Source: Planctomycetia bacterium TMED53
GTDB lineage: Bacteria; Planctomycetota; UBA8108; UBA1146
DNA length: 64,000 nt
NCBI GenBank assembly: GCA_002167285.1
Contig: NHDG01000117.1
Location: 2,188-66,187 of the forward strand
Direction: 5' to 3'
In this document: piece by piece, positions 27,142 through 50,914 of the stretch
Layout of the letters: the number at the start of each line of letters is the position of its first letter
Numbering within the stretch: position 1 is the first letter of the stretch
The notes under the pieces: model-generated
Seen by the model: only the letters and a program-made list of their open reading frames with translations
What the model was told of the DNA's origin: nothing
Database searches by the model: none
Translations under genes and position numbers: made by a program

Positions 27142-27157
27142 TGGCATGAGATCTGCC
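27142..27157 (+). promoter_or_regulatory. Candidate sigma54 (-24/-12) promoter upstream of the gspK-like operon
   Basis: TGGCAT-GAGAT-CTGCC, with GG at 27143-27144 and GC at 27155-27156, i.e. the canonical spacing of TGGCAC-N5-TTGCW. It lies about 80 nt upstream of ATG 27237. Confidence 0.55.
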
Positions 27158-27236
27158 GAAGATGTAGGTGCGGGATCGATGCTGCCGAGAGGGCATGGCG
27201 GTCCCCGCTGAACCGTCTGACAGGGATGTGAGTGCG

Positions 27237-28874
27237 ATGAGAAGCACGCAGGAAAACATCACGAATCGGAGGCATGTCCACGGATCCGCAAAGGATTCCG
27301 GGATGGCCCTCTTCATCGTATTGGTGTTGGTTCTCGTCCTCACCGTTGTCATCACTCAGATGGTCTTCGTGACTCAGGTGGAAAAACGAATTTCTCAGAA
27401 TCGTCAGGGTTTCACTCATTTGAACTATGCTTTGCAAGCCAGTTCACGCCTTGTCATGCAAAAGATCTCTGAAGATTTGATGGAAGACCTGGGATTGCTC
27501 GAGGCACTCGAAGCAGACGCTGAATCTGGATTTGGATCGCTTCCCGGAGGTGGCAACGGTGATGCCGGACCTAACACGGGCCAAGGGAGCCCCGGTGAAG
27601 ATGATGATCGCGATGGCGAGAACGGCCCTTCCGAATCTTCCGATGATCCCGTCGACACACGTCATGATGCTTGGGCATACCCCATTCAGGACACGATCAA
27701 TGAAGTTCAGGTTTCCGGAGAAATCATCGACGGCGAATCCTGTATCGACCTGAATCACATCTTTGAGTTGGTTCTCTTCGAAGAAGATGAAGAAGACCCA
27801 GCGGATGGAGATGGCGAGGAGGGCGGTGACGGTGGAGAAGGTGATCTTCCTGATTTAGGAGATCTTGGGGTTCCGACGACGAGCGGCAATGGACTCGCTT
27901 CTTCGGCGAATTTCGGTACCGCCTCTACTGGTAGTGATTTTGAAGAGGAATACGTTCTGCCGGAGCAGCAGCAAGTGGACGACGCCGAGATCATGCTGAC
28001 CAGATTGATCGAAGCAGTGATCGATTATAACCAAGAGAACGGCTTCTCATACGATCAGACACCTGATGCCACCGACGCTGCAGGCGCCATCGTTGGCTAC
28101 GTCTTTCAGCGGGTGTCCGATGAAAAGACACGTCGGATCCGCAGTCTTGATTCATTGTTGCAATTGGAAGAGGTCAGTCTCGAATTGTTTGATGGCCCGG
28201 TCGATCCGGCCGAAGCGGAGAGATTGGCTGAAGAAGCAGAGGCCGCAGGAGATTCAGGAGATTTTCCGGGTGGCCTCGGAGGGCTTGCAGGCGGAATGGG
28301 CTTGCAAGATCTTCCTGGAATCGGCTCCCTCGAGTTCCTCGAGCAGAGCGGATTTTCCCTGATGGATGACATGGTGGAAGGGCCGATTCAGCCCATCGGA
28401 TTGCGTCACGTCATGACCGCAAACTCCTCAGGGAAAATCAATCTCAACACTGCAAGGCCAGAAGTTCTCATGGCATTGATCCCATCCATCGAAGACTTTG
28501 ATGAAGCGAAGGAGATCGCTTGGCAAATTTTCGATAGGGGAAACACCTTCAGGGAGCTCTCAGAGGAAGAAGAAGCTCTGGCTGCAGAACAGGCACTGGA
28601 GGACGGAGAAGAGCCCCCTCAAGAGTTTGAGCATTTCACCAGTCTTAATCAGTTGTCCCAGATCAATGAAGACTGGACCGTCTCGGAAATTGGCGAGGAT
28701 TCTATCGCCGATCTTCTTAAAGAGGATTTGAAGTCGAATGTGGTTTTTGCCAGCCAATATTTCACAGCAAACCTCGAAGGGACCAAGAATAATCAGACTC
28801 TGGCGGGTAAACTGGTATGTGCAAGGAGAGATCGTCACATCGTGGTGCTCTCGTGGCGAGAGATGAAACGATGA
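27237..28874 (+). CDS. GspK-like minor pseudopilin with a long acidic insertion
   Basis: N-terminal SGMALFIVLVLVLVLTVVITQM hydrophobic segment and a C-terminal GKINLNTARPEVLMALIPS helix-hairpin-helix-like motif typical of GspK. The middle is Asp/Glu/Gly-rich (EEDEEDPADGDGEEGGDGGEGD). The start is uncertain (27168, 27195 or 27237). Confidence 0.55.
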   Translation: MRSTQENITNRRHVHGSAKDSGMALFIVLVLVLVLTVVITQMVFVTQVEKRISQNRQGFTHLNYALQASSRLVMQKISEDLMEDLGLLEALEADAESGFGSLPGGGNGDAGPNTGQGSPGEDDDRDGENGPSESSDDPVDTRHDAWAYPIQDTINEVQVSGEIIDGESCIDLNHIFELVLFEEDEEDPADGDGEEGGDGGEGDLPDLGDLGVPTTSGNGLASSANFGTASTGSDFEEEYVLPEQQQVDDAEIMLTRLIEAVIDYNQENGFSYDQTPDATDAAGAIVGYVFQRVSDEKTRRIRSLDSLLQLEEVSLELFDGPVDPAEAERLAEEAEAAGDSGDFPGGLGGLAGGMGLQDLPGIGSLEFLEQSGFSLMDDMVEGPIQPIGLRHVMTANSSGKINLNTARPEVLMALIPSIEDFDEAKEIAWQIFDRGNTFRELSEEEEALAAEQALEDGEEPPQEFEHFTSLNQLSQINEDWTVSEIGEDSIADLLKEDLKSNVVFASQYFTANLEGTKNNQTLAGKLVCARRDRHIVVLSWREMKR

Positions 28875-28893: not shown

Positions 28894-30045
28894 ATGATAA
28901 AGCTGAATCTCAAATGGGTCGCAGCAGGTCTGGCCTTGTTCAATATCGGCGGATTGGCACTGCTGACCGTCACATTGTTGAACATGTATGGATTTACCGA
29001 AGAGGATCGAAAGCAGATCCGTTTGGTGAACCCGAAGGACTTCGAGATGCCTGCAGATACGCCGAGACCAGTTTCAAACCGTTATCAGACGGTGATACGT
29101 GATCTCTACAGAAAGAAGCCGGTGCCCCCCGTTGTACCAGTGAAAACTGAGCAGGAGCCTGAGCTTCCAGTTCTCGATGGCGGGCCGTTGAGAGATTGGC
29201 AAGTGACAGGAGTCATCATTTCTGAAGAGGGTCGAAAGTTTGCTACTCTCCAAGAGAAGTCGGCGAACCCTATCGGTTCAGCGACCACCGGCCGCAGAAC
29301 TACGACGAACTCGCGTCTACGAGGAACTACAGGAAGAACCTCTTCAAGAACGACGACTTCCCGTGGCAGAACTTCGAGTCGCTCGAGAGCTCCAAGTAGA
29401 CTTCCGAGTCAGAATCAATCGAGGGTGCGCTACATTGAACAAGGCCAAGAATTTCGGGTCGATGAGAATACTTACGAAGTTCTGAGTATTACCCATACTC
29501 CTAAGCAGATCACTTACAGATACGACAATCGTAGCTACACACTTCAAACCGAGGACGTTCTTGACCCGGTGATCAATGAGGTCGATGGAGGTTTGGTGCT
29601 GAAAGGCTACAGCCCTGAAGAATTAGAAACTCTGGGTCTCGGAGGCAGCCAACTTCCCGGGCGCGGAACGCCTCAACCTCAAAGGATTCCCAATGATTCC
29701 AGAGGAGCCATCAAGAATGGCAAAGGCCAAGATGTCTCTGGGGGAGCAGGCGCAAAGGGGAGTACCCCAGCAACGAACCGAACACCCACCAATACCCGAC
29801 CGACCCCGGCTAAGAATCAGCCGAGCAGATCCGGGTTGGGTGGATCCAATAATCAAAGGGGGCGTGTTCAGCCAGCGAAACCCAATCCGCGAGGATCAGG
29901 GCTTTCGCGGGAAACTTCCGAACAGAAACAAAGCCGCAAGCAACTTGAGGCCACTTTGGGGATCGATCTGGAAAAAGATCCTCAAGGTGCGATTCGACAA
30001 CTTGAAGGTTTGACAAACCCGCGCCCGCGATCGCGAGATCAATAG
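28894..30045 (+). CDS. Membrane-anchored protein, possible GspC/PilP-like (HR-domain) component with basic Arg/Ser/Thr-rich insertions
   Basis: N-terminal TM segment (WVAAGLALFNIGGLALLTVTLL). WQVTGVIISEEGRKFATLQEKS ... YIEQGQEFRVDENTYEVLSITHTPKQITYRY resembles the GspC/PilP HR beta-strand pattern. It is interrupted by GRRTTTNSRLRGTTGRTSSRTTTSRGRTSSRSR. SD aaagga lies upstream of the ATG. Confidence 0.4.
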   Translation: MIKLNLKWVAAGLALFNIGGLALLTVTLLNMYGFTEEDRKQIRLVNPKDFEMPADTPRPVSNRYQTVIRDLYRKKPVPPVVPVKTEQEPELPVLDGGPLRDWQVTGVIISEEGRKFATLQEKSANPIGSATTGRRTTTNSRLRGTTGRTSSRTTTSRGRTSSRSRAPSRLPSQNQSRVRYIEQGQEFRVDENTYEVLSITHTPKQITYRYDNRSYTLQTEDVLDPVINEVDGGLVLKGYSPEELETLGLGGSQLPGRGTPQPQRIPNDSRGAIKNGKGQDVSGGAGAKGSTPATNRTPTNTRPTPAKNQPSRSGLGGSNNQRGRVQPAKPNPRGSGLSRETSEQKQSRKQLEATLGIDLEKDPQGAIRQLEGLTNPRPRSRDQ

Positions 30046-30081: not shown

Positions 30082-31827
30082 GTGGCATTGCACGCAGGTA
30101 TTGAAGTAGACGGTGGCATAGTCCGCATTGCTGTCTTGGATGTTTCAGCCAAGCAGACAGTGATCGTCGATTTCATCGAAGAAGCAACACAAGGAGATTC
30201 CTCTGATGAGCGCAATGAATCTTTGCGCAAGATTCTCAAGGAGAATCTGACAGGTGGTGATCGAGCTGGCTTGGAGGTTGCTTCGTCAATCCCGACCCGT
30301 TTGATGACTATCAGGGATATCGCTGTACCTTTCACAAAAGACGAGGTGATTCAAAAGACGATTCGTTACGAGAGTGAAGGCCACATCCCTGGAGTGTCGA
30401 TCGATGACCTCATCATCGATTACTTGAAATGTTCTGAAAATGAGGACTCAGCTCAACTGATCATTGGTGCCATCGATAAAGATTCGTTGCGCAAGCATTT
30501 GGACATCTTTAAGGACACGGGTCTCGATCCTGCGAGAGTGGAGATCGACGAAACCGCTTTGGCGACTTCTTTTCATGTTGCCCATGAAAAGCTGCAAAGC
30601 GGTAAGACCTTGCTGCTGAATATGGAAGCGGGTCACACCGATTTTGTCATCATCGAAGATGGGCGTATCGTTCGTCTTCGTTCGACAGCGAATCAGCTGA
30701 TACGTGATGCTTCGCCTGCTCTTCCGACCGCGGAGGAGATGGAGGTCAACGATCCCGTAGGTGAAGAACGCGATGGGAATGCTGACCCTGAAGCCGCTTT
30801 TGAGCAGTTGTTCGAAGAGAATGAGACTCCTGAGGTTGTCGAAGAACCTTTGGAAGAGTTGGCGATCGCTGTCGTTTCTGATGAAGAGTTCGATCAGCTA
30901 AAAGAGCCAGAGGTGACGCAGGGACGGCCAGTCTTTAGCTCAGACGAGTTGGTCTCCCGTTTGATTACGGAAATCCAAAGAACCTTTGCCGGGTACTTTC
31001 TCAGAAACCCTATCGACCAAATCGTTGTTTCTGGAAAAGTGTCGAAGGATTTGAACTTAGTTGAGAAGCTCTCTGAATCCTTTGAGCTTCCCGCGCATCA
31101 ACTCAGAGTTTGCGACAAGATCGAAAGCTCTATGGGGTTGGATAAGGTTGGTCGCTGTAATGAGTCTGGTGCCACTGCTGTCGGCCTCGCTTTGGGTGTC
31201 GCAGGGCAATCATTGACCGAATTTGATCTCCGCAAGGAGGAGTTTCGTTATGAGCGTCGCTTCGCGAAGTTGATCCCTGGATTGGTTCTGCTTGGGTTGA
31301 TTTTTTGCTTGTCATCGATCGCCCATCTGATTTCCAGTCATCGAGAAGGGCAATTGCGTCGTGCCGAGTACGAAGCTGTGCGCAGTAATCAGATGGAAGT
31401 TTATAAATCTCGATTTGGGGAAGAGCCCCAGCTGCGAGGCGCAGGGACTTCGATCTTGGCTGCAGCCCAAAGGAAGATTAACGAATTGAAGGGCGGCAGT
31501 GCTGGAAACAAACGAGCTCGAATTGATGAGTATCTGCCAATTGTCGAAATGATCGAAGACGTTTCAAAAGGGGTGACTTCAGCCCGACCCGAGGTGTATC
31601 CAGAGTGGCTCACTTTGGACATCAGTGGTTTGAAACGAAAAGACCAGAAGTCCACTGTGACGATGAGGGTCCCTGATGCGATCGCAGCGAACACGGTTGC
31701 AGGGGCTCTTGGAAACTCGACAAAGTTCTTCCGAATCGAAGATGATATCAAGGAAGATAAGGAAAATAAGAAACTGACCCTCAACCTATTCCTGTTGCCA
31801 GCAGTGTCCGGTGCAAGGGAGCGATGA
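30082..31827 (+). CDS. GspL/PilM-like actin-fold assembly protein with a TM segment and periplasmic C-terminal domain
   Basis: The N-terminal PilM/GspL-like region (AGIEVDGGIVRIAVLD...; LLNMEAGHTDFVIIEDGRIVRLRS) is followed by TM segment LIPGLVLLGLIFCLSSIAHLI and a domain of about 170 aa. GTG start with SD gagaggag. Confidence 0.6.
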   Translation: MALHAGIEVDGGIVRIAVLDVSAKQTVIVDFIEEATQGDSSDERNESLRKILKENLTGGDRAGLEVASSIPTRLMTIRDIAVPFTKDEVIQKTIRYESEGHIPGVSIDDLIIDYLKCSENEDSAQLIIGAIDKDSLRKHLDIFKDTGLDPARVEIDETALATSFHVAHEKLQSGKTLLLNMEAGHTDFVIIEDGRIVRLRSTANQLIRDASPALPTAEEMEVNDPVGEERDGNADPEAAFEQLFEENETPEVVEEPLEELAIAVVSDEEFDQLKEPEVTQGRPVFSSDELVSRLITEIQRTFAGYFLRNPIDQIVVSGKVSKDLNLVEKLSESFELPAHQLRVCDKIESSMGLDKVGRCNESGATAVGLALGVAGQSLTEFDLRKEEFRYERRFAKLIPGLVLLGLIFCLSSIAHLISSHREGQLRRAEYEAVRSNQMEVYKSRFGEEPQLRGAGTSILAAAQRKINELKGGSAGNKRARIDEYLPIVEMIEDVSKGVTSARPEVYPEWLTLDISGLKRKDQKSTVTMRVPDAIAANTVAGALGNSTKFFRIEDDIKEDKENKKLTLNLFLLPAVSGARER

Positions 31828-31828
31828 G

Positions 31829-32380
31829 ATGAGCGCAAAAGGAAGTACCAGCGACCTAACCCAGATTCTTCTGCTGACGCTGTTTCTTTGTTCAGCGGTT
31901 TTCGGTGCGTGGGGATTTTGGGTCAAGAAACAAGCCGCCGATTACCAGGCCGTCACTAAGCGTGAAGAAGGTAATCTGCTGCAGATGCGCGAGTTGCTTT
32001 CCAGTGCCGAAAGCAAAGAGGTGGTTCTTGAGCATCGTCGTCGCGAAGAAAGCAAAAAGAACGCCAGTAAAATCAGCGATGTCGTCATCGGTATTATTGA
32101 GACGATGAGAAATTCAACTGGACGTCCAGAGCTCAAGACTGGAAACAATGATGTCAAATCCTTGGCGGGGGGGATCAAGAAGCATATTTACACCGCTTCA
32201 TTTGAAGAGCGTCCACTCCGTGATCATGTGAGTTTCATCGCCAACATCCAAGCTCGAGCACCTCACCTCGGTTTCGAGAAGGTTAAAATTACCAATAAGT
32301 CTCCACGCAGTGAGTATCAGGATACCTGGGATCTGCAGCTGACAATCGTTAGCTTTGCCGGGGGTGAGCCCACTCGATAA
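31829..32380 (+). CDS. GspM/PilO-like bitopic protein (tentative)
   Basis: A single N-terminal TM segment (ILLLTLFLCSAVFGAWGFWV), a coiled-coil segment and a small C-terminal domain. The call rests on position directly after the GspL-like gene and on topology only. Confidence 0.35.
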   Translation: MSAKGSTSDLTQILLLTLFLCSAVFGAWGFWVKKQAADYQAVTKREEGNLLQMRELLSSAESKEVVLEHRRREESKKNASKISDVVIGIIETMRNSTGRPELKTGNNDVKSLAGGIKKHIYTASFEERPLRDHVSFIANIQARAPHLGFEKVKITNKSPRSEYQDTWDLQLTIVSFAGGEPTR

Positions 32381-37787: not shown

Positions 37788-38189
37788 GCGTTCCGTCTCT
37801 TTCCTGGGAAGCAGGTTCTTTCCACTAGTCGAAAACCGGTCTTGCCACTGTTGTCAGCGATCGATACCCATCCTACACAGGAGCGGGTTCCTGGGCTTCA
37901 GATCTCTCGAAATCCCCGCAGAGATCTTTGGCGCAAACAGGTAGAAACCGGGTGGGGGACGGGCAGGTCGGGACTCGAAGAAAGGATGAGGCGGCGCCTC
38001 GCCAGCTTTCCCAACAAGACCGTTTCCCTACAAGCCAGGATTCTAGATCGGCCATTTGCAACTGTCTACCCAAGGCCAGTCTGCTCTTTTGGGTACAGGA
38101 GATGATCCATGCATCTCAATAGGACCATTCTACCCCCCGTGGAGCGCCGATGGCGATCTCGACGAGAGTTGATCCTCTCATGGGAATCA

Positions 38190-42038: not shown

Positions 42039-43742
42039 TTAGAAGACGTCCATCTGGGTGACTCGTAAAACTTCTTCGACGGTGGTGACTCCCTGAGCCA
42101 CTTTACGTGAACCGTCCATACGGAGAGTGCGTAAGTGTCCACTTTCAACCGCAGTCTGCTTGATCACGGAAGCACTCGTTCGTGAGATGATTTGGTCACG
42201 GATGGTCTCATTCATCGTCAAAATTTCGTAAATAGCTGTTCGGTCGTAGTAACCCCTGCCAAGACAGGAATCACAGCCACGACCGTGGTAGAGCTTACCT
42301 TCCAACAGCTGATCCTTTTCAAGGCCGATGCTTTTCAGCTGGCTAGGCTCTGGTTCGAAGGACTCTTTGCAGCGGGGGCAGATCACTCTGACCAGGCGTT
42401 GGGCGACGACGCCGATCAACGATGAGGAAACCAGGTACGGTTCGACACCGAGGTCGATCATTCGTGTCACCGCACCGGCTGAATCGTTGGTGTGAAGGGT
42501 GGAGAACACCAAGTGTCCGGTGTTCGAAGCCTGCACAGCGATGCCTGCGGTTTCCATGTCGCGGATCTCACCGACCATCATGACATCCGGATCCTGACGC
42601 ATCAGGGTTCGAAGTCCGGAAGCAAAGGTCAGGCCTTTTTTGTTGGAGACCTGAATCTGACTGATGGAATCGATGTTGTATTCGATGGGGTCTTCGATGG
42701 TGATGATGTTCAGTTCTTGGGAGTCCATCTCTGCAAGAGCTGCGTAGAGTGTCGTGGATTTTCCGGAACCGGTAGGTCCCGTCACCAACAGCACTCCGTG
42801 GGAAGAGTTGACCAAACCATCGAGAAGCTCATAGTTGCGGTTATCGAGGCCGATCTCTTCCAAGCGATAGAGGCGCGCGCTTTTATCGAGGAGTCGGAAG
42901 ACGATCCTCTCCCCGTAACTGGTTGGGATCGAGGAGATCCTCAAGTCCAACTCACTATCGCCAATTTTGACAGAGGTTCGTCCGTCTTGGGGAAGTCGTC
43001 TTTCGGCGATATCCATCTTGCCGATCACCTTCACCCTGGAGACGAGTGCTTCCTGGATCTTCTTTGGAATCACCTTGGTGTCGTAAAGGATGCCGTCGAT
43101 GCGGTATCGAACTTGCAGTCGATCCGCAAAGGGTTGCAGGTGAATATCTGAAGCACGATTTTTTTGTGCCTCAAACAGGATGGTGTTCATCAGTTTGATG
43201 ATCGGCGCCTTGTTGGCGATATCGAGAACGTCTTCGGTTTCGTCGATTTCAGCTGCGATACCAATCAGGTCGTCATCTTCGATACCCTCCAGCAGTTCAT
43301 CCACATCTGCGCTCGACTTTTGGTAAGCGCGATTGATGAGCGCGGTGATTTGGGCCCGAGTCGATACCACCGGTTCGATGACCAGGCCGACTTTTGCCGA
43401 GAGGTCGTCCATCGGCTGAACATCGAGGGGGTCACACGTTGCTACGATGAGAGTTCCTGGCTCTTCACCGACGGCGATCAAGTTGTAGGTCCTCGCAAAT
43501 TGAGCGGGAACACTATTGACGAACATGTCTGGGGTACTGAAATCCTCCAGATCTTCAATGTAATTGAGATGAAGTTGTGCGGAGAGGGCTTTCAGGAAGT
43601 CCTCTTCCGAGACGTATCCCTTTTCCCGCAAGACCTTGTCGATGGGCTTGCCGGTGGTGCGTTCCTCTTCCTGGCACTCATGTAGTTGATCTTGGTTCAG
43701 GAGTCCGTCTTCGATCAGTCCGTTGAAGATCGAATGAATCAT
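42039..43742 (-). CDS. gspE: Type II secretion ATPase GspE
   Basis: Walker A GPTGSGKST, Asp box/Walker B (MMVGEIRD), His box (LVFSTLHTND), a tetracysteine motif (CPRC...CDSC) and an N-terminal T2SSE_N domain. Confidence 0.95.
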   Translation of the reverse strand: MIHSIFNGLIEDGLLNQDQLHECQEEERTTGKPIDKVLREKGYVSEEDFLKALSAQLHLNYIEDLEDFSTPDMFVNSVPAQFARTYNLIAVGEEPGTLIVATCDPLDVQPMDDLSAKVGLVIEPVVSTRAQITALINRAYQKSSADVDELLEGIEDDDLIGIAAEIDETEDVLDIANKAPIIKLMNTILFEAQKNRASDIHLQPFADRLQVRYRIDGILYDTKVIPKKIQEALVSRVKVIGKMDIAERRLPQDGRTSVKIGDSELDLRISSIPTSYGERIVFRLLDKSARLYRLEEIGLDNRNYELLDGLVNSSHGVLLVTGPTGSGKSTTLYAALAEMDSQELNIITIEDPIEYNIDSISQIQVSNKKGLTFASGLRTLMRQDPDVMMVGEIRDMETAGIAVQASNTGHLVFSTLHTNDSAGAVTRMIDLGVEPYLVSSSLIGVVAQRLVRVICPRCKESFEPEPSQLKSIGLEKDQLLEGKLYHGRGCDSCLGRGYYDRTAIYEILTMNETIRDQIISRTSASVIKQTAVESGHLRTLRMDGSRKVAQGVTTVEEVLRVTQMDVF

Positions 43743-46069: not shown

Positions 46070-46243
46070 GGCATTTCCTCTCTCTTCATCGGCCGGTAGG
46101 CGATCGGCCTTGGGACTTTTCGGGACATTTTTCCTGATCTTGTGTTCGGCGATCCGACGACAGGGTCGAGACTTGCTCTCTCCTGCCGCCAAATGCAGCG
46201 AAACTCGCTGCAGGGATGGAATCCGCCGTTCCCCTTCATTTTA

Positions 46244-46259
46244 AGCAAATCAAATGCCC
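46244..46259 (-). promoter_or_regulatory. Candidate sigma54 (-24/-12) promoter upstream of gspD
   Basis: The minus strand reads GGGCAT-TTGAT-TTGCT, with GG at 46258/46257 and GC at 46246/46245, i.e. canonical spacing. Only the first T of the consensus differs. Confidence 0.55.
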
Positions 46260-46426
46260 GTCCATGGCAACTGGGCAAGTTATCCAACTTTATTTAAATA
46301 AAGGGGTTACGTGATTCCGGTAACCTATTCCTGGTGGCCAATTATCTGATCTGGGGTGTGAAGTGTTGTGAAATCGAACATCTTTGCCAGGAGGGGTTTT
46401 CGTGACGATGCTGGATTATCGGAGGT

Positions 46427-47200
46427 TCAGGGGCGAGATCGATCCAGATCTTGAAGCATCTTTTGAGCTTCTTTCCAAAGGTGTTCGGGGATCCTGATCA
46501 GCAAAGAGTTGGTGGGCTCGTTGACGACGACGTGAATTCCCTGGCCCCCTCGATCCTCCCAGCGCTGCTCCAGCAGTTCAGCCAGCAATGGGGCTCTCAT
46601 AAATTGGGCCTTCCAAATCTTCAGTGCGGGTCGATCTTGGTTCGGTGGGGGGCGTTGGTCTTTTTCGCGAATCAGTCGGAGATAGTGATTCAAGCGCGCG
46701 TTGGAAGCGCAGTTTAGAACGATGCTATTTGTCCGAGGTGAAGGGACGAAGTTGCTGTAACGGTCGAGTGGATCGAGGTTTTTTTCCTTGGAGCGAGCTT
46801 CTGAGCGCAACAGGTCAACCGCTTCTTCCGGATCGAGATGTTCGAGTTGAATCACTTCGATGATGGGCTTTGGACGTGGTGGATCAGCCAGAGGATTGTA
46901 CGTGATCCAGTAAGCTCTTGGTTGATCAGCGGAGCCAACGGGTTTGAGGAAAAGACCAGAGTTGTTGAGAAGTGCTTCCAAGAGCTGAAAATTCTGGTGA
47001 TTCAATGTGAATGGTTTGAGTAAGTTCACAGGTGTGTTGCCCATTTTATCTTCAGCGTAGACGAGCGGGGCATCTGAAAGTAATGCCCAGCCTCTCAGCA
47101 GAGAGGCCGCGGGAAGATAACCCTTGGGCAGAACATCACCGGGTTCGGTAGGTAGCGGCAGCAGCAGAAATGCAGAGAGGCAAATTCCCAAGGTATTCAC
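46427..47200 (-). CDS. Secreted protein with Secretin_N-like repeats (free-standing secretin N-domain protein)
   Basis: Signal peptide MNTLGICLSAFLLLPLP. There are two segments shaped like secretin N-domains (IEVIQLEHLDPEEAVDLLR...RTNSIVLNCASNARLNHYLRLIREKD; LKIWKAQFMRAPLLAELLE...PTNSLLIRIPEHLWKEAQKMLQDLD). GTG start. Confidence 0.45.
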   Translation of the reverse strand: MNTLGICLSAFLLLPLPTEPGDVLPKGYLPAASLLRGWALLSDAPLVYAEDKMGNTPVNLLKPFTLNHQNFQLLEALLNNSGLFLKPVGSADQPRAYWITYNPLADPPRPKPIIEVIQLEHLDPEEAVDLLRSEARSKEKNLDPLDRYSNFVPSPRTNSIVLNCASNARLNHYLRLIREKDQRPPPNQDRPALKIWKAQFMRAPLLAELLEQRWEDRGGQGIHVVVNEPTNSLLIRIPEHLWKEAQKMLQDLDRSRP

Positions 47201-47342: not shown

Positions 47343-49181
47343 TCATTCGACCATGTTCTTCAATCTCGAGTAGAGGGTCGATCTTTCGATTCCAAGGATT
47401 TCAGCAGCCTTCTTTTTGTTTCCACCAGCGTGCTCCAAAACCTTTAAAATATGCTCCTCTTCAAGGACTTTGAGGGAAACAGGTTTCCACTCTCCCTCCG
47501 ACTGAATTGCGGGGTCTTGAGGTAGCAATCGCAAATCGTTGCCTTCAATCAGACCGCCCTCAGAGAAGATCACGGCACTCTCAAGAAGGTTGCGGAGTTC
47601 GCGAACATTTCCGGGGAAAGGGTGTGAATCCAGCAACTCGATCGCTTCGGGGGTGAGTTGTTTTCTCGGTCTGTTCTTGTCGGAAAATTGATCGAGGAAG
47701 TGCTCCGCAAGAAGTGCAATATCTCCACTTCGATCTCTCAACGGCGGAGCCTGAATCTCGAGAACGGCGAGACGGAAGTAGAGATCCTCACGGAATCGAC
47801 CCGCTTCAACTTCTTTTTTGAGGTCGCGATTGGTTGCGGCAATTAATCGAACGTCAACTTCAATGGAGGTGTTACTGCCAACCATTTCGAGGCAACGGGT
47901 TTCCAGTAATCGCAGCATTTTTGATTGGGCTGGCTCGGGAAGTTCGCCAATTTCATCAAGAAACACGGTGCCGCCATCTGCCGCTTCAAACTTACCGATT
48001 TTTTTGCGGTCCGCTCCTGTGAACGCTCCCTTTTCGTGGCCGAAGAGTTCGCTTTCGACAAGATGGGGAGGAATCGCGGCGCAATTGATGGTGACAAATG
48101 GGGCGGCAGATCGAGATCCATGAAAGTGAATCCCCCGCGCGACGAGTTCTTTGCCGGTGCCGGTTTCTCCCATCACCAGGACGGTCCCTTGTGTTGGAGC
48201 TACTTTTTTGATGAATGTGCGGACTTCTTCGATGGCTTGGGAAGAACCGATGATGGGGTGGGTGTTCAGAACTGATTTCACCAGTTCTTCCTTCTCATGA
48301 TGGAGCTCGTCGAGCTCGGCATTGAGAGAGAGCCCTGCACCCATCGTTGCGGCAGCAATGCCACCAGCCCACATCTCCGCTTCACCCAAGGGGCGAGAGT
48401 CTCCATCAATTCGATCGAGGTAGAGAATGCCACTGAGGGATCCCTCGATGAAAATTGGTGCGGCGATCACGCTACGAATTTCATCACCTGTCACACTGCG
48501 GCGGTCTTCAAAACGAGGATCTAAGGAGGTGTCACGAGAAAGAACTGTGCGTCTATTGCGCAACAGTTCCGCAAGGATGGTTTGGCTTAACACGAATCCT
48601 TGCAGTGGCACTCCAATCCGCGACCAAGCAGTTCGGCATAGCCAATGGTCACCTTCTTGGATCAAGATGGCTCCACGATCAGCTTCCACTCCTTCGACTA
48701 ATTTTTGTAATCCTCGATCGAGGCTTTCTGAGTCGGAGAACCCTTCACCAAGAAGGGGGGCGGCTTGATCCAGGGTTTTGAGGATTTGACGAACTTGTTG
48801 ATCCGAGAAGCTACCGGGATCTTCAGTTTTTGAATCCAGGATTTGGGTACGCTCAGGATGATCGGAAAATGTTTCAATCCGTGTTTCGACGATGAGCTCC
48901 GTATCTCCAATACGAATATGCTGACCTGGGAACAACAATTGTTCTTTGATGGGGTCGCCAGAGACAAACGTGCCATTAGAAGAATCGAGATCGGTAACTT
49001 TCCAGCCGGATGAAGTCAAATTGAGAAGAGCGTGAAAGCGGCTGGCTGCGGGGTCACGTAAGCAGATTTCGGCCGATTCATCACGGCCGATGCGAATTCC
49101 GTCTCGACGTGCCAACTCATCACTGATGTCGTATTTTTTTGCGGATTCACCTGGGGAAACGACGTGGACACGAGTCTTCAT
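47343..49181 (-). CDS. Sigma54-dependent transcriptional activator with N-terminal FHA and GAF domains
   Basis: FHA domain (IRIGRDESAEICLRDPAASRFHALL...DLDSSNGTFV), a central GAF-like region, AAA+ domain (GETGTGKE, ESELFGHEKGAFTGA) and a Fis-type HTH (AAEILGIERSTLYSRLK). ATG 49181 overlaps the kinase stop (ATGA). Confidence 0.85.
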   Translation of the reverse strand: MKTRVHVVSPGESAKKYDISDELARRDGIRIGRDESAEICLRDPAASRFHALLNLTSSGWKVTDLDSSNGTFVSGDPIKEQLLFPGQHIRIGDTELIVETRIETFSDHPERTQILDSKTEDPGSFSDQQVRQILKTLDQAAPLLGEGFSDSESLDRGLQKLVEGVEADRGAILIQEGDHWLCRTAWSRIGVPLQGFVLSQTILAELLRNRRTVLSRDTSLDPRFEDRRSVTGDEIRSVIAAPIFIEGSLSGILYLDRIDGDSRPLGEAEMWAGGIAAATMGAGLSLNAELDELHHEKEELVKSVLNTHPIIGSSQAIEEVRTFIKKVAPTQGTVLVMGETGTGKELVARGIHFHGSRSAAPFVTINCAAIPPHLVESELFGHEKGAFTGADRKKIGKFEAADGGTVFLDEIGELPEPAQSKMLRLLETRCLEMVGSNTSIEVDVRLIAATNRDLKKEVEAGRFREDLYFRLAVLEIQAPPLRDRSGDIALLAEHFLDQFSDKNRPRKQLTPEAIELLDSHPFPGNVRELRNLLESAVIFSEGGLIEGNDLRLLPQDPAIQSEGEWKPVSLKVLEEEHILKVLEHAGGNKKKAAEILGIERSTLYSRLKNMVE

Positions 49182-50914
49182 GAGACATCTGCCATGCGCA
49201 ATGCGCGTAATACTCTCTCTCGATCGAGAGCTCCTTGGAGAAGGACCCGATCCACTTTGCTGTTCCAACCGGAGATGTCTCCTTCGAATCTCAAGCCCGG
49301 TGCACCGGAAGGGATCGCATCGACAGGGATACTGAAAACGATCGTCAGGATGTCTGAAGTTTGCTTTTCACCAGCGGTGGAAATCGAAAATTGATATCGT
49401 TGCCGATCTGGGTTTTGCCGATCCAATTTTTCCAACTTCAAATGGTGGTTCACTCCCTCACGGACAACCCCAGTCCGTTGTAAATCTTCGATTTCAACCG
49501 CTACAGGAGATCCTTGTTGCAATACTTCAATTCGTGGAGGTGCCGATCTCCCTACCGGAAGGCTGATGCGCCAACGATTTCCAGGTTGATCGGGGTCACC
49601 GGCGACTTGCAGTTCCAGATCGGGATTACCAAGACAGCGTAAGCCATGGATCTCCCAGCTATCGATCTCCGACATAAATGGAAATGAGACGGTTCTGGAA
49701 TCATTGGCCCAACGCAGTTGACCATCCCTGATCGATAGGGATATGCGCTTTCGCGTAGCCCTCTGGTCTTCGAGAGGGTCCATACGGAAGAACCTCTCGA
49801 GTTCACCATTCTTGAAATCGAAATCGAGAAGATCTTTTGCTCCCTGATGGGCCAATAGGTCGCCGTAATATTCGCTGACCCGTTTGTTGGCTGAGGGGAA
49901 TCCCAACCAGTCTCCTATGCCACCGTTGATCGAGGCGGCCCAGCCGACCACTGTAATCAAGAGGGCAACAGTCGTCGCCGCGATCAGAGAACTACGTGCA
50001 GACTGCTTTTTGCTGGGATCGAGGCGGCTCTCTATCCCTCGCAGGCATTGCAGTACTTCCCGGTAGTTTTGTGGGCGCTGTTTTGGATCCTTCGCCATCA
50101 TGCGGTGGAGGAGGTCATCCAGTTCTGGATCGAGACCTGGTTTCACTTCAGTGACACGTGGAACCGGCGCATTGACATGAGCAATTAGGAGATCCATGCG
50201 CGAGTCTCTGCGGTATGGCGGAGACCCGGTCAGTAGATGGAACAGCGTTGCACCCAGACTGTAAATGTCAGATCTTTCATCGGTCACTGATCCTTGAACC
50301 TGTTCTGGGGAGCAGTATTGCGGAGTTCCTACGACTTCTGTTTCGTCATCCGTGAGTTCTCCAACAGGTCCAGCGAGACCAAAGTCGACCAACTTAATAC
50401 TGTCCCGGGAATCGATGATCAGGTTTGAAGGTTTGATATCACGGTGAATGATTCCTTGATTGCGCGCTTCCTCTAATGCTCGAGAAGCGGCGAGTGCGAC
50501 GCGCAAGACTTCCAGAGTTTCGAGGCATTTTTGTTTTTGTAGTAGTTCCTCAAAACTGGGGCCAGGAAGAAACTCCATCACTAAATAGGGAAGTTCACCG
50601 TCGTCGTGAATTGCGTGAATCTGGCCGATGTTGGGATGGTTGACTGCAGCGATGGCGCGAGCTTCGGCCAAGAATTTTTCACGGATATCGTCATGATCCT
50701 TGAGTCGTGGGTGAACACGTTTGATGGCGACGGTTCTTTGTAGCGATGGATCGTGGGCGCGGTAAACGATTCCCATGCCACCTTCGCCCATCTTCTCTTC
50801 GATGACGAAGTGGCCAATTTTGTCGAAGCTGGGGGTTTGCATCGGTTGGGTGTCACCCGCTGAAAGGCTATCCGAGTCCGGTGTGGCGGGGCTGAGGAGA
50901 ATGTCAGATTTCAT
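49178..50914 (-). CDS. Hanks-type Ser/Thr protein kinase with a TM segment and an extracytoplasmic C-terminal domain
   Basis: Gly loop GEGGMGIVYRA, VAIK Lys, catalytic loop HRDIKPSNL, DFG and GTPQYCSPE motifs. TM segment LIAATTVALLITVVGWA is followed by a domain of about 250 aa of unknown fold. Confidence 0.9.
   Translation of the reverse strand: MKSDILLSPATPDSDSLSAGDTQPMQTPSFDKIGHFVIEEKMGEGGMGIVYRAHDPSLQRTVAIKRVHPRLKDHDDIREKFLAEARAIAAVNHPNIGQIHAIHDDGELPYLVMEFLPGPSFEELLQKQKCLETLEVLRVALAASRALEEARNQGIIHRDIKPSNLIIDSRDSIKLVDFGLAGPVGELTDDETEVVGTPQYCSPEQVQGSVTDERSDIYSLGATLFHLLTGSPPYRRDSRMDLLIAHVNAPVPRVTEVKPGLDPELDDLLHRMMAKDPKQRPQNYREVLQCLRGIESRLDPSKKQSARSSLIAATTVALLITVVGWAASINGGIGDWLGFPSANKRVSEYYGDLLAHQGAKDLLDFDFKNGELERFFRMDPLEDQRATRKRISLSIRDGQLRWANDSRTVSFPFMSEIDSWEIHGLRCLGNPDLELQVAGDPDQPGNRWRISLPVGRSAPPRIEVLQQGSPVAVEIEDLQRTGVVREGVNHHLKLEKLDRQNPDRQRYQFSISTAGEKQTSDILTIVFSIPVDAIPSGAPGLRFEGDISGWNSKVDRVLLQGALDRERVLRALRMADVS

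What the first reader, a model, noticed from the sequence alone, without database searches (positions are those of the whole stretch)
27142..50914. Sigma54- and Ser/Thr-kinase-linked T2SS-like locus, split in two by a Kelch-HEAT-Kelch lipoprotein module
Seen:
- A full set of T2SS-type genes is present but arranged unusually. The + strand (27.2-32.4 kb) carries gspK-like, a GspC/PilP-like candidate, a GspL/PilM-like gene and a GspM-like gene. The - strand (38.4-47.2 kb) carries a secretin-N protein followed by gspD-E-F-G-H-I-J.
- The two halves converge on an operon of three envelope proteins with no classical T2SS role: Kelch lipoprotein, HEAT protein and Kelch lipoprotein (32.4-37.8 kb).
- All three units have a -24/-12 sequence with correct sigma54 spacing (27142, 38190, 46244).
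- Immediately upstream lie a Hanks kinase and an FHA-GAF-sigma54 activator, coupled by an ATGA overlap.
- No prepilin peptidase (GspO) and no canonical PDZ-type GspC occur in the window.

Inference: this looks like one regulon, in which kinase signalling through the FHA domain licenses sigma54 transcription of both the secretion machine and the Kelch/HEAT proteins. Those proteins could be dedicated cargo, surface-anchored adaptors or structural accessories. I cannot judge novelty without database searches.
Basis: partly seen in the sequence, partly recalled or inferred. Interest (0 to 1): 0.8.

Follow-up and report, generated by a model that had tools for sequence, protein, structure and literature searches.

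The report
Planctomycete secretion machine with Kelch/HEAT module
An uncultured marine planctomycete carries a type II secretion gene cluster with three extra envelope proteins (two Kelch lipoproteins and a HEAT-repeat protein) built into it and one shared kinase and sigma-54 switch next to it; about twenty related species keep this layout, so it is a real, undescribed variant of a well-known machine.

Summary
Window 27.0-50.9 kb holds one conserved cluster. It reads: Hanks kinase, FHA-GAF-sigma54 activator (ATGA overlap), a free-standing secretin N0-N1-N2 protein, gspDEFGHIJ, Kelch lipoprotein / TM-HEAT protein / Kelch lipoprotein, and, convergent, gspK-like, a TM protein, a PilM-type GspL-like fusion and a GspM-sized protein.

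- **Conservation:** the same order recurs in about 20 species-level Planctomycetota MAGs, with Kelch1 identity from 89% down to 32%. A freshwater relative with L at 26% identity still has Kelch2 convergent on M.
- **Promoters:** all three -24/-12 sigma54 elements are conserved at orthologous positions. P_D and P_Kel are preceded by the palindrome TGTKC-N7-GMACA. P_K keeps only the right half.
- **Corrections:**
  - The secretin-N gene lies upstream of the gspD promoter, probably in the regulator operon.
  - The Kelch operon also has a conserved sigma70-like promoter.
  - The C and M assignments rest only on position and topology.
- **New:** a conserved structured RNA hairpin follows gspJ.

Best reading: one kinase -> FHA-activator -> sigma54 regulon co-expresses a T2SS-class machine with dedicated Kelch lipoprotein cargo and a membrane-anchored HEAT chaperone. 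The cargo and chaperone roles are inferred, not shown. This is a new variant of a known kind.

The parts
49178..50914 (-). Receptor-type Hanks Ser/Thr kinase: kinase domain, TM segment at about residues 310-332, then a periplasmic domain of about 245 aa with no known family
   Evidence: Pkinase 172 bits. VAIK, HRD, DFG and SPE motifs and the TM segment are read from the translation. No Pfam hit for the C-terminal 240 aa.
47343..49181 (-). FHA-GAF-AAA+(sigma54)-HTH_8 enhancer-binding protein, 612 aa from the ATG that overlaps the kinase stop (ATGA)
   Evidence: Pfam domains. ATGA overlap. GAFTGA and Walker A/B. The same architecture is called upstream of secN in L007, L009 and L010 and in L039 and L040, there with the kinase.
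46427..47200 (-). secN: a free-standing periplasmic protein that resembles the N0-N1-N2 domains of a secretin and has no pore domain. It lies upstream of the gspD promoter, probably in the kinase-activator operon.
   Evidence: 2 Secretin_N domains. Its profile hits GspD N1-N2 in the PDB at E 2e-6. The AF2 model's best fold matches are XcpQ and GspD N0-N1-N2, E 2.6e-8 over about 233 columns. The gap to the activator gene is 142 nt here, 11 nt in L007, and a 4-nt overlap in L009.
46364..46380 (.). Upstream activator site of P_D: palindrome TGTKC-N7-GMACA (one mismatch here), about 114 bp upstream of the -24 element
   Evidence: Perfect copies TGTTC-N7-GAACA occur at the same place in L018 and L019.
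46245..46259 (-). Sigma54 promoter P_D (GGGCAT-N5-TTGC) for gspDEFGHIJ
   Evidence: CGGGCATT..TTTGC is invariant in 8 of 8 aligned relatives.
43739..46192 (-). gspD secretin. The longest ORF is given; gene callers start it later, giving 776 aa.
   Evidence: Secretin 122.9 bits, Secretin_N x3. TIGR02517 is the best secretin family (261.7 bits, below the 351 cutoff).
42039..43742 (-). gspE ATPase with an N-terminal MshEN domain
   Evidence: TIGR02533 635.7 vs 630.25; T2SSE 434 bits; MshEN 58 bits.
40805..42019 (-). gspF platform protein
   Evidence: TIGR02120 428.5 vs 424; T2SSF 220 bits.
40320..40754 (-). gspG major pseudopilin (144 aa as called)
   Evidence: TIGR01710 89.1 vs 88.85; T2SSG 57 bits; G|FTLIEL motif.
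38399..40316 (-). gspH (39786-40316), gspI (39301-39792) and gspJ (38399-39301), the minor pseudopilins
   Evidence: N_methyl motifs. The gspH, gspI and gspJ TIGRFAMs are the best hits but score below cutoff. T2SSJ Pfam is recorded for the J orthologs in L007, L008, L039 and L040.
38311..38387 (-). Conserved structured RNA hairpin just after the gspJ stop. It has an 11-bp outer stem, inner stems and an invariant apical motif UUGCGUGAUCC, followed here by a U-tract.
   Evidence: MFE -45 kcal/mol, z -3.7. The same three-tier fold occurs in several versions with different stem sequences, and the sense strand is usually the more stable one. The covariance model finds exactly one copy per locus, always after gspJ, and none elsewhere in 645 kb. 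No Rfam or tRNA match.
38277..38293 (.). Upstream activator site of P_Kel: TGTGC-N7-GCACG (one mismatch), about 81 bp upstream of the -24 element
   Evidence: Perfect copies TGTGCCA-N5-CGCACA occur at the same place in L007, L020 and L022.
38191..38205 (-). Sigma54 promoter P_Kel (TGGCAC-N5-TTGC)
   Evidence: Exact consensus match. TTGGCAC..(T/A)TGC is conserved in 13 relatives.
38040..38068 (-). Sigma70-like promoter TAGACA-17-TAGAAT inside the 5' leader of the Kelch operon
   Evidence: 10 of 12 consensus positions. T(A/G)GACA-N17-TA(G/C)AAT is conserved in all 10 aligned relatives, including L007.
35895..37787 (-). Kelch1 lipoprotein (630 aa): beta-propeller with inserted beta-domains
   Evidence: Kelch_4, Kelch_6 and Kelch_1. 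Lipobox Cys32 is conserved and followed by a Gly/Ser-rich stretch. AF2 pLDDT 75, pTM 0.80; fold hits are only generic Kelch propellers.
34720..35859 (-). HEAT-repeat protein with an N-terminal TM anchor and a Pro-rich linker. A periplasmic solenoid is predicted.
   Evidence: HEAT_2 77.9 bits. The profile hits only alphaRep/PBS-type HEAT proteins. The TM helix is read from the sequence. Orthologs are present in every complete locus.
32463..34679 (-). Kelch2 lipoprotein (738 aa as called): an N-terminal domain of about 350 aa with no known family, then a Kelch propeller
   Evidence: Kelch families at residues 457-743 of the long ORF. The lipobox Cys is followed by an S/D/N-rich stretch. An ortholog is still convergent on M in the distant locus L041.
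31829..32380 (+). GspM-sized bitopic membrane protein (candidate only), overlapping the end of L
   Evidence: No HMM or PDB support; 1 of 10 orthologs gives a weak T2SSM_b hit at E 0.013. A protein of 180-195 aa follows L in all relatives.
30082..31827 (+). GspL-like fusion: a full PilM-type actin-like cytoplasmic domain, a TM segment and a periplasmic domain
   Evidence: PilM_2 34.8 vs 27; Amuc_1101_fam 66 bits. The family has 351 representatives at E<=1e-10. Of 60 sampled, 59 hit PilM_2, 15 hit T2SSL and 3 hit GspL_C. The profile hits PilM structures at E 8e-44.
28894..30045 (+). Bitopic protein with a conserved GGPL.DWEI.GVI...FA.IQEK / G..F.ID...Y.V..I...P..V.Y...G..YTL beta-region split by a Ser/Arg/Thr-rich insert. 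It is a GspC-HR/PilP-like candidate with no PDZ.
   Evidence: Alignment. No Pfam, NCBIfam or PDB-sequence support. The assignment rests on position and topology only.
27303..28874 (+). GspK-like minor pseudopilin (523 aa as called) with large acidic inserts
   Evidence: T2SSK 22.1 vs 24.2 and NF037980 49 vs 130, both sub-threshold. G|MALFIVL N-terminus without Glu5. The protein in the same position in the distant locus L042 hits T2SSK_1st weakly.
27142..27156 (+). Sigma54 promoter P_K (TGGCAT-N5-CTGC) for gspK-C'-L-M
   Evidence: Exact match. ATGGCA(C/T)..ATCTGCCGA is conserved in 9 relatives; TTGGCCC..TTTGCC in L007 and L009.
26992..27008 (.). Probable upstream activator site of P_K: TGTAG-N7-CAACA (2 mismatches), about 143 bp upstream of the -24 element. 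It overlaps the stop codon of the RND pump gene.
   Evidence: The conserved block TGT(A/C)G-N7-GAACAC is present in 6 relatives. This is weaker than the other two sites.

Best explanation
The region is a single, lineage-specific type II secretion (T2SS-class type IV filament) locus of an uncultured marine planctomycete. Kelch1 is identical to a protein of 'Planctomycetia bacterium TMED53'. I read four transcription units.

1. A regulator operon: kinase, activator and probably secN.
2. gspDEFGHIJ from sigma54 promoter P_D.
3. kelch1-heat-kelch2 from sigma54 promoter P_Kel plus a downstream sigma70-like promoter.
4. gspK-C'-L-M from sigma54 promoter P_K.

**Proposed mechanism**
- The transmembrane Hanks kinase senses a periplasmic or envelope cue through its C-terminal domain, which matches no known family, and phosphorylates a threonine.
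- The activator's FHA domain reads that phosphothreonine. The GAF domain may add a small-ligand input.
- The AAA+ module is released. Bound as a dimer or hexamer to the TGTKC-N7-GMACA palindromes 80-145 bp upstream, it remodels sigma54-RNA polymerase at the three promoters.
- The machine and the Kelch/HEAT module are therefore made together.

**Proposed roles of the module**
- The two Kelch lipoproteins are most likely the machine's dedicated cargo. They would be acylated at the inner membrane and then moved through the secretin to be displayed on the cell surface, as PulA and InvL are.
- The inner-membrane-anchored periplasmic HEAT solenoid would act as their cognate chaperone or adaptor, as the TM-anchored LipB and CpaB do.

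**What is shown and what is inferred**
- Shown by sequence: gene identities, conserved synteny, conserved promoters and palindromes, and domain integrity.
- Inferred: the direction of signalling, which activator acts on the promoters, and the cargo and chaperone roles.
For: **Machine**
- E, F and G reach the curated T2SS equivalog cutoffs. D's best match is GspD. There are five pseudopilin-type N-termini. No PilT is present.
- The K-C'-L-M block recurs even at 24-26% L identity.

**Module is part of the system**
- The order EBP>secN>D-J>Kel1-HEAT-Kel2<M-L-C'-K is found in about 20 species-level MAGs, with Kel1 identity from 89% to 32%.
- Kel2 is still convergent on M in a freshwater relative.
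- Kel1 is about as conserved as GspD: 70% vs 73% in L018 and 40% vs 43% in L009.

**Regulon**
- The only two exact sigma54 consensus matches in 64 kb are P_K and P_Kel.
- In four divergent relatives, 8 of 10 TGGC-N7-TTGC hits fall in the three expected intergenic spots in the right orientation.
- The -24 and -12 elements are conserved while the spacers drift.
- 5 of 6 perfect TGTKC-N7-GMACA palindromes in 355 kb lie upstream of P_D or P_Kel.
- The activator has GAFTGA, Walker motifs and HTH_8. The kinase is catalytically intact and membrane-spanning. The ATGA coupling is conserved.

**Cargo and chaperone**
- The lipobox Cys is conserved in Kel1 and Kel2 orthologs. P2'-P6' is Gly/Ser-rich in Kel1 (CHGSG, CNSGG, CSGSG, CGGGS) and S/D/N-rich in Kel2, with Asp at +2 in some.
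- This resembles the sorting motif required for T2SS-dependent surface lipoproteins (PMC12802150).
- The HEAT protein has an N-terminal TM anchor and is encoded next to the Kelch genes. That is the defining layout of T2SS membrane chaperones (PMC4713064).
- L036 has Kel1-HEAT-Kel1-HEAT pairs and L010 has an extra Kel1 copy.
- Stand-alone Kel1 paralogs, some with Ig-like domains, exist elsewhere in the same genomes. Copy-number variation of this kind fits cargo better than fixed-stoichiometry machine parts.
- The module has its own promoters.
Against: - No secretion, localisation or transcription data exist, and the organism is uncultured.
- GspN, which known T2SS lipoprotein cargo requires, was not found in the locus.
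- Lipoprotein sorting rules are unknown for Planctomycetota, and Gly/Ser-rich tethers after the lipobox are common in lipoproteins generally.
- Kel1 is unusually well conserved for a surface-exposed cargo.
- Strict placement inside the machine cluster across deep divergence fits a structural role equally well.
- The C' and M assignments have no homology support.
- L's cytoplasmic domain is PilM-like rather than classical GspL-like.
- Kinase linkage was verified only in the closer relatives. L008 has a PAS-HK-RR hybrid in place of the activator and secN.
- A second sigma54 activator lies 6 kb away.
- The P_K palindrome is weak in the window (2 mismatches).
Confidence: 0.55

Rival explanations
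1. The Kelch-HEAT-Kelch proteins are structural or assembly accessories of the machine, not cargo. The lipoproteins might act as a secretin-associated outer-membrane or pilotin-like ring. The HEAT protein might be an inner-membrane scaffold that replaces the PDZ part of GspC, or replaces GspA/B/N/S.
For: - The module has a strict position between gspJ and gspM in every complete locus over deep divergence.
- Kel1 is conserved at the level of GspD, and more than G, H, K, L or M.
- The locus lacks a recognisable pilotin, GspN, GspA/B and a PDZ-type GspC.
- The module is co-regulated from the same type of promoter and palindrome.
Against: - There is no precedent for proteins of 630-740 aa as pilotins.
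- Copy number varies (L010, L036), and stand-alone paralogs occur away from any gsp genes.
- The module has separate promoters, including a sigma70-like one, which implies expression uncoupled from the machine.
- Fold search gives only generic Kelch propellers.
Confidence: 0.25
2. The locus builds a type IV pilus-like surface fibre rather than a secretion piston. The Kelch propellers would then be PilY1-like tip or anchor adhesins that work with the minor pilins.
For: - A beta-propeller gene lies directly downstream of the minor (pseudo)pilin genes, as pilY1 does.
- L's cytoplasmic domain matches PilM structures at E 8e-44 and hits the Amuc_1101 PilM-like family.
- GspE carries an MshEN domain.
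Against: - E, F and G reach the T2SS equivalog cutoffs, not the PilB or PilC cutoffs.
- The major subunit has the T2SSG domain.
- A GspK-like protein without Glu5 is present.
- There is no PilT/PilU in the locus.
- The Kelch proteins are lipoproteins without a vWA domain, and the fold search did not return PilY1.
Confidence: 0.08
3. The three sigma54 promoters are driven mainly by the neighbouring NtrC-type response regulator (57121-58548) with its HAMP histidine kinase (55322-57124). The adjacent kinase and FHA-activator pair would then control something else or only fine-tune expression.
For: - A complete HK plus sigma54 response-regulator pair lies 6 kb from the kinase gene.
- The pair is also present in the closer relatives L039 and L040.
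- Both activators have Fis-type HTH domains.
Against: - The FHA-GAF activator is the gene that stays directly upstream of secN and gspD, in the same orientation, in distant relatives (L007, L009, L010, L028).
- Linkage of the HK/RR pair could not be seen beyond the close relatives.
Confidence: 0.12

Closest known systems
Klebsiella Pul T2SS with its lipoprotein cargo PulA, and Acinetobacter InvL (PMC12802150)
   Same: - A complete gsp-type machine, with a lipobox-bearing protein as the proposed substrate.
- G/S- or N/D-rich residues follow the acylated Cys.
- From my own knowledge, not tested here: in Pul the cargo gene sits next to the machine genes and is co-regulated with them.
   Different: - Here there are two Kelch beta-propeller lipoproteins of unknown activity.
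- They sit between gspJ and gspM rather than at the edge of the cluster.
- No GspN was found.
- Regulation is by sigma54, an FHA-activator and a Hanks kinase rather than by MalT.
- The phylum is Planctomycetota.
Membrane-anchored T2SS chaperones LipB/Lif and CpaB (PMC4713064)
   Same: - An N-terminal TM anchor.
- A periplasmic, largely helical body.
- The gene lies directly next to the presumed effector gene.
- L036 shows 1:1 Kelch-HEAT pairing.
   Different: - The HEAT/PBS-type repeat fold is unrelated in sequence to Lif or CpaB.
- One HEAT protein is flanked by two candidate clients.
- No binding or secretion data exist.
FHA-domain enhancer-binding proteins with Hanks kinases in Myxococcus xanthus, and T6SS control by PpkA/Fha1 plus sigma54 activators (own knowledge, not tested here)
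   Same: - Phosphothreonine signalling feeds a sigma54 activator, or a secretion machine is gated by a Hanks kinase and an FHA protein.
   Different: - Here the kinase, the FHA-GAF activator and three cognate promoters with a shared palindrome are all in one T2SS locus.
- I found no paper that links this arrangement to a T2SS.
Akkermansia Amuc_1098-1102 pilus-like cluster (PVC superphylum; NCBIfam Amuc_1101 and Amuc_1098 families)
   Same: - L resembles the Amuc_1101-type PilM-like fusion protein (66 bits at the N-terminus).
- The secretin gives a weak hit to the Amuc_1098 family.
   Different: - The scores are far below the family cutoffs (66 vs 650; 84 vs 750).
- E, F and G here are T2SS-type.
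- The Akkermansia cluster is not known to contain a Kelch/HEAT module.

Membership tests
Type II secretion system (Gsp) | Outer-membrane secretin of the GspD type | tested here: met
   Secretin 122.9 bits plus 3 Secretin_N domains. TIGR02517 is the best secretin family (261.7 bits) but is below its 351 cutoff.
Type II secretion system (Gsp) | GspE ATPase and GspF platform protein | tested here: met
   TIGR02533 635.7 vs 630.25. TIGR02120 428.5 vs 424. The PilB and PilC models score below their cutoffs.
Type II secretion system (Gsp) | Major pseudopilin GspG | tested here: met
   TIGR01710 89.1 vs 88.85; PF08334 57 bits; G|FTLIEL motif.
Type II secretion system (Gsp) | Minor pseudopilins GspH, I, J and K | tested here: inconclusive
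   H, I and J have prepilin motifs, and their best hits are the gspH, gspI and gspJ models, all below cutoff. K is sub-threshold for T2SSK and NF037980. The number, order and N-termini fit. T2SSJ and T2SSK_1st hits occur in orthologs.
Type II secretion system (Gsp) | GspL and GspM inner-membrane assembly platform | tested here: inconclusive
   L has GspL topology (cytoplasmic actin-like domain, TM, periplasmic domain). Of 60 family members, 15 hit T2SSL and 3 hit GspL_C, but the cytoplasmic domain is closest to PilM. M has no homology support.
Type II secretion system (Gsp) | GspC with HR and PDZ (or coiled-coil) domains | tested here: not met
   The protein at 28894-30045 has no PDZ and no HMM or PDB-sequence match. 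The HR/PilP-like reading rests only on a conserved motif and on position.
Type II secretion system (Gsp) | Prepilin peptidase GspO/PilD | tested here: not met
   No Peptidase_A24 hit among the ~50 window ORFs scanned. It may be encoded elsewhere, as in Acinetobacter (PMC4713064). The rest of the genome could not be searched.
Type II secretion system (Gsp) | Secretion of folded periplasmic proteins that depends on the machine | not testable with these tools
   The organism is uncultured and no experimental data exist.
Sigma54-dependent promoter and bacterial enhancer-binding protein regulon | -24 GG and -12 GC elements with canonical spacing, conserved at orthologous sites | tested here: met
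Sigma54-dependent promoter and bacterial enhancer-binding protein regulon | Activator with an AAA+ domain carrying GAFTGA and a DNA-binding HTH, and upstream activator sites about 80-150 bp upstream | tested here: met
   GAFTGA, Walker A/B and HTH_8. The palindrome TGTKC-N7-GMACA is enriched upstream of P_D and P_Kel and is weaker at P_K. Binding itself was not tested.
Sigma54-dependent promoter and bacterial enhancer-binding protein regulon | rpoN present in the genome | not testable with these tools
   rpoN is not in the window and the MAG as a whole cannot be queried.
Hanks kinase to FHA phosphothreonine signalling | Catalytically competent Hanks kinase genetically coupled to an FHA-domain protein | tested here: met
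   VAIK, HRD, DFG and SPE motifs. FHA 56 bits. The ATGA overlap is conserved in L039 and L040. Distant relatives could not be checked. Phosphotransfer was not tested.
T2SS-dependent surface lipoprotein with a membrane-anchored chaperone | Lipobox, plus a G/S- or N/D-rich sorting stretch after the acylated Cys | tested here: met
   compared with PMC12802150. The rule has not been validated in Planctomycetota.
T2SS-dependent surface lipoprotein with a membrane-anchored chaperone | GspN (AsmA-like) required for lipoprotein export | tested here: not met
   No locus protein matches T2SSN or AsmA-like families.
T2SS-dependent surface lipoprotein with a membrane-anchored chaperone | Chaperone with an N-terminal TM domain encoded next to its effector | tested here: met
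   The HEAT protein's TM helix and its adjacency to the Kelch genes, compared with PMC4713064. Chaperone function was not tested.
PilY1-type pilus tip adhesin | vWA domain plus a PilY1-like C-terminal propeller, non-lipoprotein | tested here: not met
   No vWA domain. The lipobox is present. The fold search returned TYW4, KLHDC2 and galactose oxidase/GlxA, not PilY1.

The most novel reading that the evidence does not exclude
The locus defines a new T2SS subtype, so far seen only in Planctomycetota MAGs.
- The two Kelch lipoproteins and the TM-HEAT protein would be integral envelope-spanning components, for example an outer-membrane and periplasmic cage around the secretin.
- The free N0-N1-N2 protein, encoded with the kinase and the activator, would act as an assembly sensor or decoy. 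It would report secretin or GspC-like status to the periplasmic domain of the kinase, closing a feedback loop onto the three sigma54 promoters.
- The conserved RNA hairpin after gspJ would add post-transcriptional control between the machine operon and the Kelch operon.
Probability: 0.2. Interest if true: 0.8.

Novelty: new variant of a known kind. Interest (0 to 1): 0.6.

Why it matters
- **Little-studied territory.** From my own knowledge, T2SS biology rests almost entirely on Proteobacteria. My five full-text searches returned no paper on a planctomycete T2SS or on a Kelch/HEAT module in one.
- **A conserved, self-contained system.** The locus holds sensor kinase, activator, three promoters with a recognisable operator, machine, two candidate surface lipoproteins and a candidate chaperone. 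It occurs in marine, freshwater and groundwater Planctomycetota MAGs.
- **If the Kelch proteins are cargo,** this is a compact model for how T2SS machines recognise lipoproteins without GspN.
- **If they are structural,** this is a new architecture for a secretin machine.
- **Testable now.** The regulatory part can be checked with purified proteins and reporter fusions without culturing the organism.
- **Extra parts.** The analysis also yielded a new conserved RNA structure and a free-standing secretin N-domain protein, neither with an assigned function.

Tried and rejected
**Searches that found nothing useful**
- Rfam found nothing in the whole window at gathering threshold, nor in the 37.7-38.5 kb leader at E<=10. 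ARAGORN also found nothing.
- Profile searches of the C' and M ortholog alignments against PDB sequences and Pfam gave only noise. This includes a C' alignment with the low-complexity insert removed. I therefore list C' and M as candidates only.
- The word-indexed homolog search with L found only close relatives. The exhaustive search was needed instead.
- Five literature searches found no paper describing this arrangement.

- The metagenome scan with the L010 secN protein found no relative. Kinase linkage in distant relatives therefore stays untested.

**Ideas tested and dropped**
- *Kel1 as a galactose-oxidase-like radical copper enzyme.* The fold overlap is only generic (TM 0.4). The invariant residues are the per-blade R..H kelch motif, with no Tyr/Tyr/His/His/Cys set.
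- *Kel1 as PilY1-like.* Not supported.
- *Shared k-mers among the three promoter regions of the window alone.* None of 7 nt or longer. The palindrome appeared only through phylogenetic footprinting.
- *Sigma54 or palindrome sites upstream of stand-alone Kel1 paralogs.* None were convincing, and their true starts are uncertain.
- *A perfect palindrome match inside gspE at 42521.* Relatives have near-matches at the equivalent gspE position, so I attribute it to coding conservation, not to a binding site.
- *The conserved TTGACA upstream of P_Kel as a sigma70 -35 element.* Rejected because no -10 element follows it and it is inverted in L007 and L028.

Full report
**1. What is there**

ORF listing and HMM scans (Pfam; NCBIfam) give the following map.

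On the minus strand:
- Hanks Ser/Thr kinase, 49178-50914.
- FHA-GAF-sigma54 AAA+-HTH_8 activator, 47343-49181. Its ATG overlaps the kinase TGA as ATGA.
- A 257-aa protein with two Secretin_N domains ('secN'), 46427-47200.
- gspD, 43739-46192.
- gspE with an MshEN domain, 42039-43742.
- gspF, 40805-42019.
- gspG, 40320-40754.
- gspH, gspI and gspJ, 38399-40316.
- Kelch1, 35895-37787.
- A HEAT-repeat protein, 34720-35859.
- Kelch2, 32463-34679.

On the plus strand, convergent on Kelch2:
- A GspK-like protein, 27303-28874.
- A 383-aa bitopic protein ('C''), 28894-30045.
- A 581-aa PilM-domain protein with a TM segment ('L'), 30082-31827.
- A 183-aa bitopic protein ('M'), 31829-32380.

Support varies by gene. 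GspE, GspF and GspG reach the curated T2SS equivalog cutoffs. GspD, H, I, J and K have the matching T2SS model as best hit, but below cutoff. C' and M match nothing. Both Kelch proteins have lipoboxes, and the HEAT protein has an N-terminal TM helix. The flanks hold RND efflux genes upstream and an ArgZ-like gene downstream.

**2. Source**

The HEAT protein is encoded identically on Tara Oceans scaffolds. Kelch1 is identical to a hypothetical protein of 'Planctomycetia bacterium TMED53'. All full-length Kelch1 relatives carry Planctomycetota or unclassified MAG labels, except L023, which is deposited as a Bacillota MAG.

**3. Is the arrangement conserved?**

Yes, strongly.
- Neighbourhoods of Kelch1 homologs at 54, 44, 40 and 38% identity show the same order.
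- A scan of one genome per species returned 27 loci. A tblastn map shows EBP>secN>D E F G H I J>Kel1 HEAT Kel2<M L C' K in every locus long enough to show it. Kel1 identity ranges from 89% to 32%.
- Variants exist. L010 has an extra Kel1 copy. L036 has Kel1-HEAT-Kel1-HEAT. L008 has a PAS-HK-RR hybrid where the activator and secN normally sit.
- Some genomes also have stand-alone Kel1 paralogs away from any gsp genes.
- An exhaustive search with L found a larger family, with 351 representatives at E<=1e-10.
- In one freshwater relative with L at 26% identity, a Kel2 ortholog is still convergent on M.
- In another relative at 24%, the K-C'-L-M block is kept, and the K-position protein gives a weak T2SSK_1st hit.

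**4. Regulation**

*Sigma54 promoters.*
- TGGCAY-N5-YTGC has two exact matches in 64 kb, against 0.4 expected. Both are the sites upstream of gspK and Kelch1.
- The gspD site has one mismatch.
- In four divergent relatives, 8 of 10 TGGC-N7-TTGC matches fall in the three orthologous intergenic regions in the right orientation. Those regions make up about 3% of the strand positions.
- Alignments of 8-10 relatives show invariant -24 and -12 elements with drifting spacers.

*Upstream palindrome.*
- Footprinting revealed TGTKC-N7-GMACA 80-145 bp upstream of the -24 elements.
- Of 6 perfect matches in 355 kb of 15 loci, 5 lie upstream of P_D or P_Kel.
- The P_K site keeps the GAACA half.

*Activator and kinase.*
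- The activator has GAFTGA, Walker A/B and a Fis-type HTH.
- The kinase has all catalytic motifs, a TM segment, and a periplasmic domain of about 245 aa with no known family.
- Kinase-activator overlap is conserved in L039 and L040.
- Distant relatives could not be reached.

*Two corrections.*
- P_D lies downstream of secN, and secN abuts the activator gene. The secN gene therefore probably belongs to the regulator operon.
- The Kelch operon's leader of about 400 nt contains a sigma70-like promoter, TAGACA-17-TAGAAT, that is conserved in all aligned relatives.

A second sigma54 activator, an NtrC-type response regulator with its histidine kinase, lies at 55.3-58.5 kb.

**5. The individual odd parts**

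- **secN.** Its profile hits GspD N1-N2 in the PDB. Its AF2 model is best matched by XcpQ and GspD N0-N1-N2. It is a secretin periplasmic arm without a pore.
- **L.** It has GspL topology, but its cytoplasmic domain is a full PilM-type fold (PDB E 8e-44). Of 60 family members, 59 hit PilM_2, 15 hit T2SSL and 3 hit GspL_C.
- **C'.** It has a conserved beta-region split by a Ser/Arg/Thr-rich insert. No detectable homology was found.
- **Kel1.** The AF2 model (pLDDT 75, pTM 0.80) is a Kelch propeller with extra beta-domains. PDB matches are generic (TYW4, KLHDC2, galactose oxidase/GlxA), and PilY1 is not among them.
- **HEAT.** It matches only alphaRep/PBS-type repeats.

**6. Mechanism**

The machine is T2SS-class, for these reasons:
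- E, F and G reach the T2SS cutoffs.
- There are five pseudopilin N-termini, including a Glu5-less K.
- There is no retraction ATPase.
- D's best match is GspD.

I propose a kinase -> FHA-activator -> sigma54 circuit that switches on the machine operons and the Kelch operon together.

For the module, I favour dedicated lipoprotein cargo plus a membrane-anchored chaperone. The reasons are:
- Conserved lipoboxes are followed by Gly/Ser-rich (Kel1) or Ser/Asp/Asn-rich (Kel2) stretches. These resemble the sorting motif required for T2SS-dependent surface lipoproteins (PMC12802150).
- The HEAT protein has the TM-anchored, effector-adjacent layout that defines T2SS chaperones (PMC4713064).
- Kelch-HEAT pairs are duplicated in L036, and stand-alone paralogs exist.
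- The module has its own promoters.

Against this reading:
- No GspN was found.
- Planctomycete lipoprotein sorting rules are unknown.
- Kel1 is as conserved as GspD.
- The module's position is invariant.

These points keep a structural role alive, at about 0.25.

**7. Comparison and novelty**

The closest systems are these:
- The Pul machine with PulA, and Acinetobacter InvL, for lipoprotein cargo.
- LipB and CpaB, for chaperones.
- Myxococcus FHA-activators, and T6SS PpkA/Fha1 with sigma54 control, as regulatory analogies (own knowledge).
- The Akkermansia Amuc_1098-1102 cluster, for the PilM-type fused L.

No paper in the searchable library links Planctomycetota, a T2SS and Kelch/HEAT proteins, or links a T2SS to a kinase, FHA-activator and sigma54 cassette. 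I class the locus as a new variant of a known kind.

**8. Extra finding**

A hairpin of about 70 nt follows the gspJ stop at 38311-38387.
- **Fold.** It folds at -45 kcal/mol with z -3.7.
- **Distribution.** It occurs once per locus, always at this position, and nowhere else in 645 kb.
- **Stem sequences.** It keeps the same three-tier fold although the stems differ in sequence.
  - Four outer-stem versions were seen: GGGGCCUCCGG, GGGGUCUCCGG, CCGGACUCUC and AGCCUUCCGG.
  - L007 and L026 have different inner stems.
- **Invariant apex and strand.** The apical UUGCGUGAUCC never changes, and the sense strand is usually the more stable one.
- **Identity.** It matches no Rfam family.
- **Possible role.** It may be a terminator that doubles as a protein-binding element or a 3'-UTR sRNA.

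Noticed in passing
window 38311-38387 (-), and the same position in L007, L008, L012-L024, L026, L032, L039 and L040: A conserved structured RNA hairpin lies between the gspJ stop and the Kelch operon promoters. The stems differ in sequence between relatives but still pair, the apical motif UUGCGUGAUCC is invariant, and a U-tract follows in some loci. There is one copy per locus and no Rfam match.
   Followed up: partly
window 38040-38068 (-): A sigma70-like promoter, TAGACA-17-TAGAAT, lies about 130 nt downstream of the sigma54 promoter in the Kelch operon leader. It is conserved in all aligned relatives, so the Kelch operon has tandem promoters.
   Followed up: yes
window 46427-47200 (-): The 'secretin-N protein' is a free-standing N0-N1-N2-like periplasmic protein without a pore domain. 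Its gene abuts the activator gene and lies upstream of the gspD promoter, so it may belong to the regulator operon.
   Followed up: yes
window 55322-58548 (+): A HAMP histidine kinase and an NtrC-type sigma54 response regulator lie 6 kb from the locus. The same histidine kinase (and in L040 the sigma54 response regulator) is also present next to it in L039 and L040. This is a possible second activator of the sigma54 promoters.
   Followed up: no
window 58669-63586 (+): Downstream of the HK/RR pair are two genes: a 1090-aa protein with 11 CarboxypepD_reg repeats, and a 434-aa protein with an N-terminal TM segment, a short HEAT-like region and a C-terminal PDZ. The second has a GspC-like topology, but nothing links it to the T2SS.
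   Followed up: no
window 566-3367 (+), in-frame TGA at 1664-1666: Two adjacent ORFs in the same frame encode one Fe-S plus molybdopterin oxidoreductase. The TGA between them sits in the motif CSRG-U-HSPTVAGL, which resembles the selenocysteine site of formate dehydrogenases. This is probably a selenoprotein gene, not a pseudogene.
   Followed up: partly
window 42039-43742 (-), N-terminus of GspE: GspE has an MshEN domain and scores 36.9 bits against a cutoff of 38 on the c-di-GMP-binding motif model. The first motif looks degenerate, lacking the Arg, Gly and Gln positions. Whether c-di-GMP binds is open.
   Followed up: no
L011/L030, L029, L031, L033-L035; L010 10001-14401; L036: Kel1 paralogs occur outside any gsp cluster in the same genomes. 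Among the protein-search hits some are longer and carry PF05345 Ig-like domains (P0032, P0036, P0041, P0042). L010 has an extra Kel1 copy, and L036 has two Kel1-HEAT pairs.
   Followed up: partly
window 19477-26996 (+) and the matching flank in L007, L012-L025 and L028: An RND efflux operon (membrane-fusion protein plus two AcrB-type pumps) ends 145 bp before P_K. The last pump gene stays next to gspK in relatives down to about 48% pump identity. The P_K palindrome overlaps the pump gene's stop codon.
   Followed up: no
L008/L027 1-1471: In one relative the FHA-GAF activator and secN are replaced upstream of gspD by a divergently oriented PAS-histidine kinase-receiver hybrid. The sensory input to the locus is therefore not fixed.
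   Followed up: no
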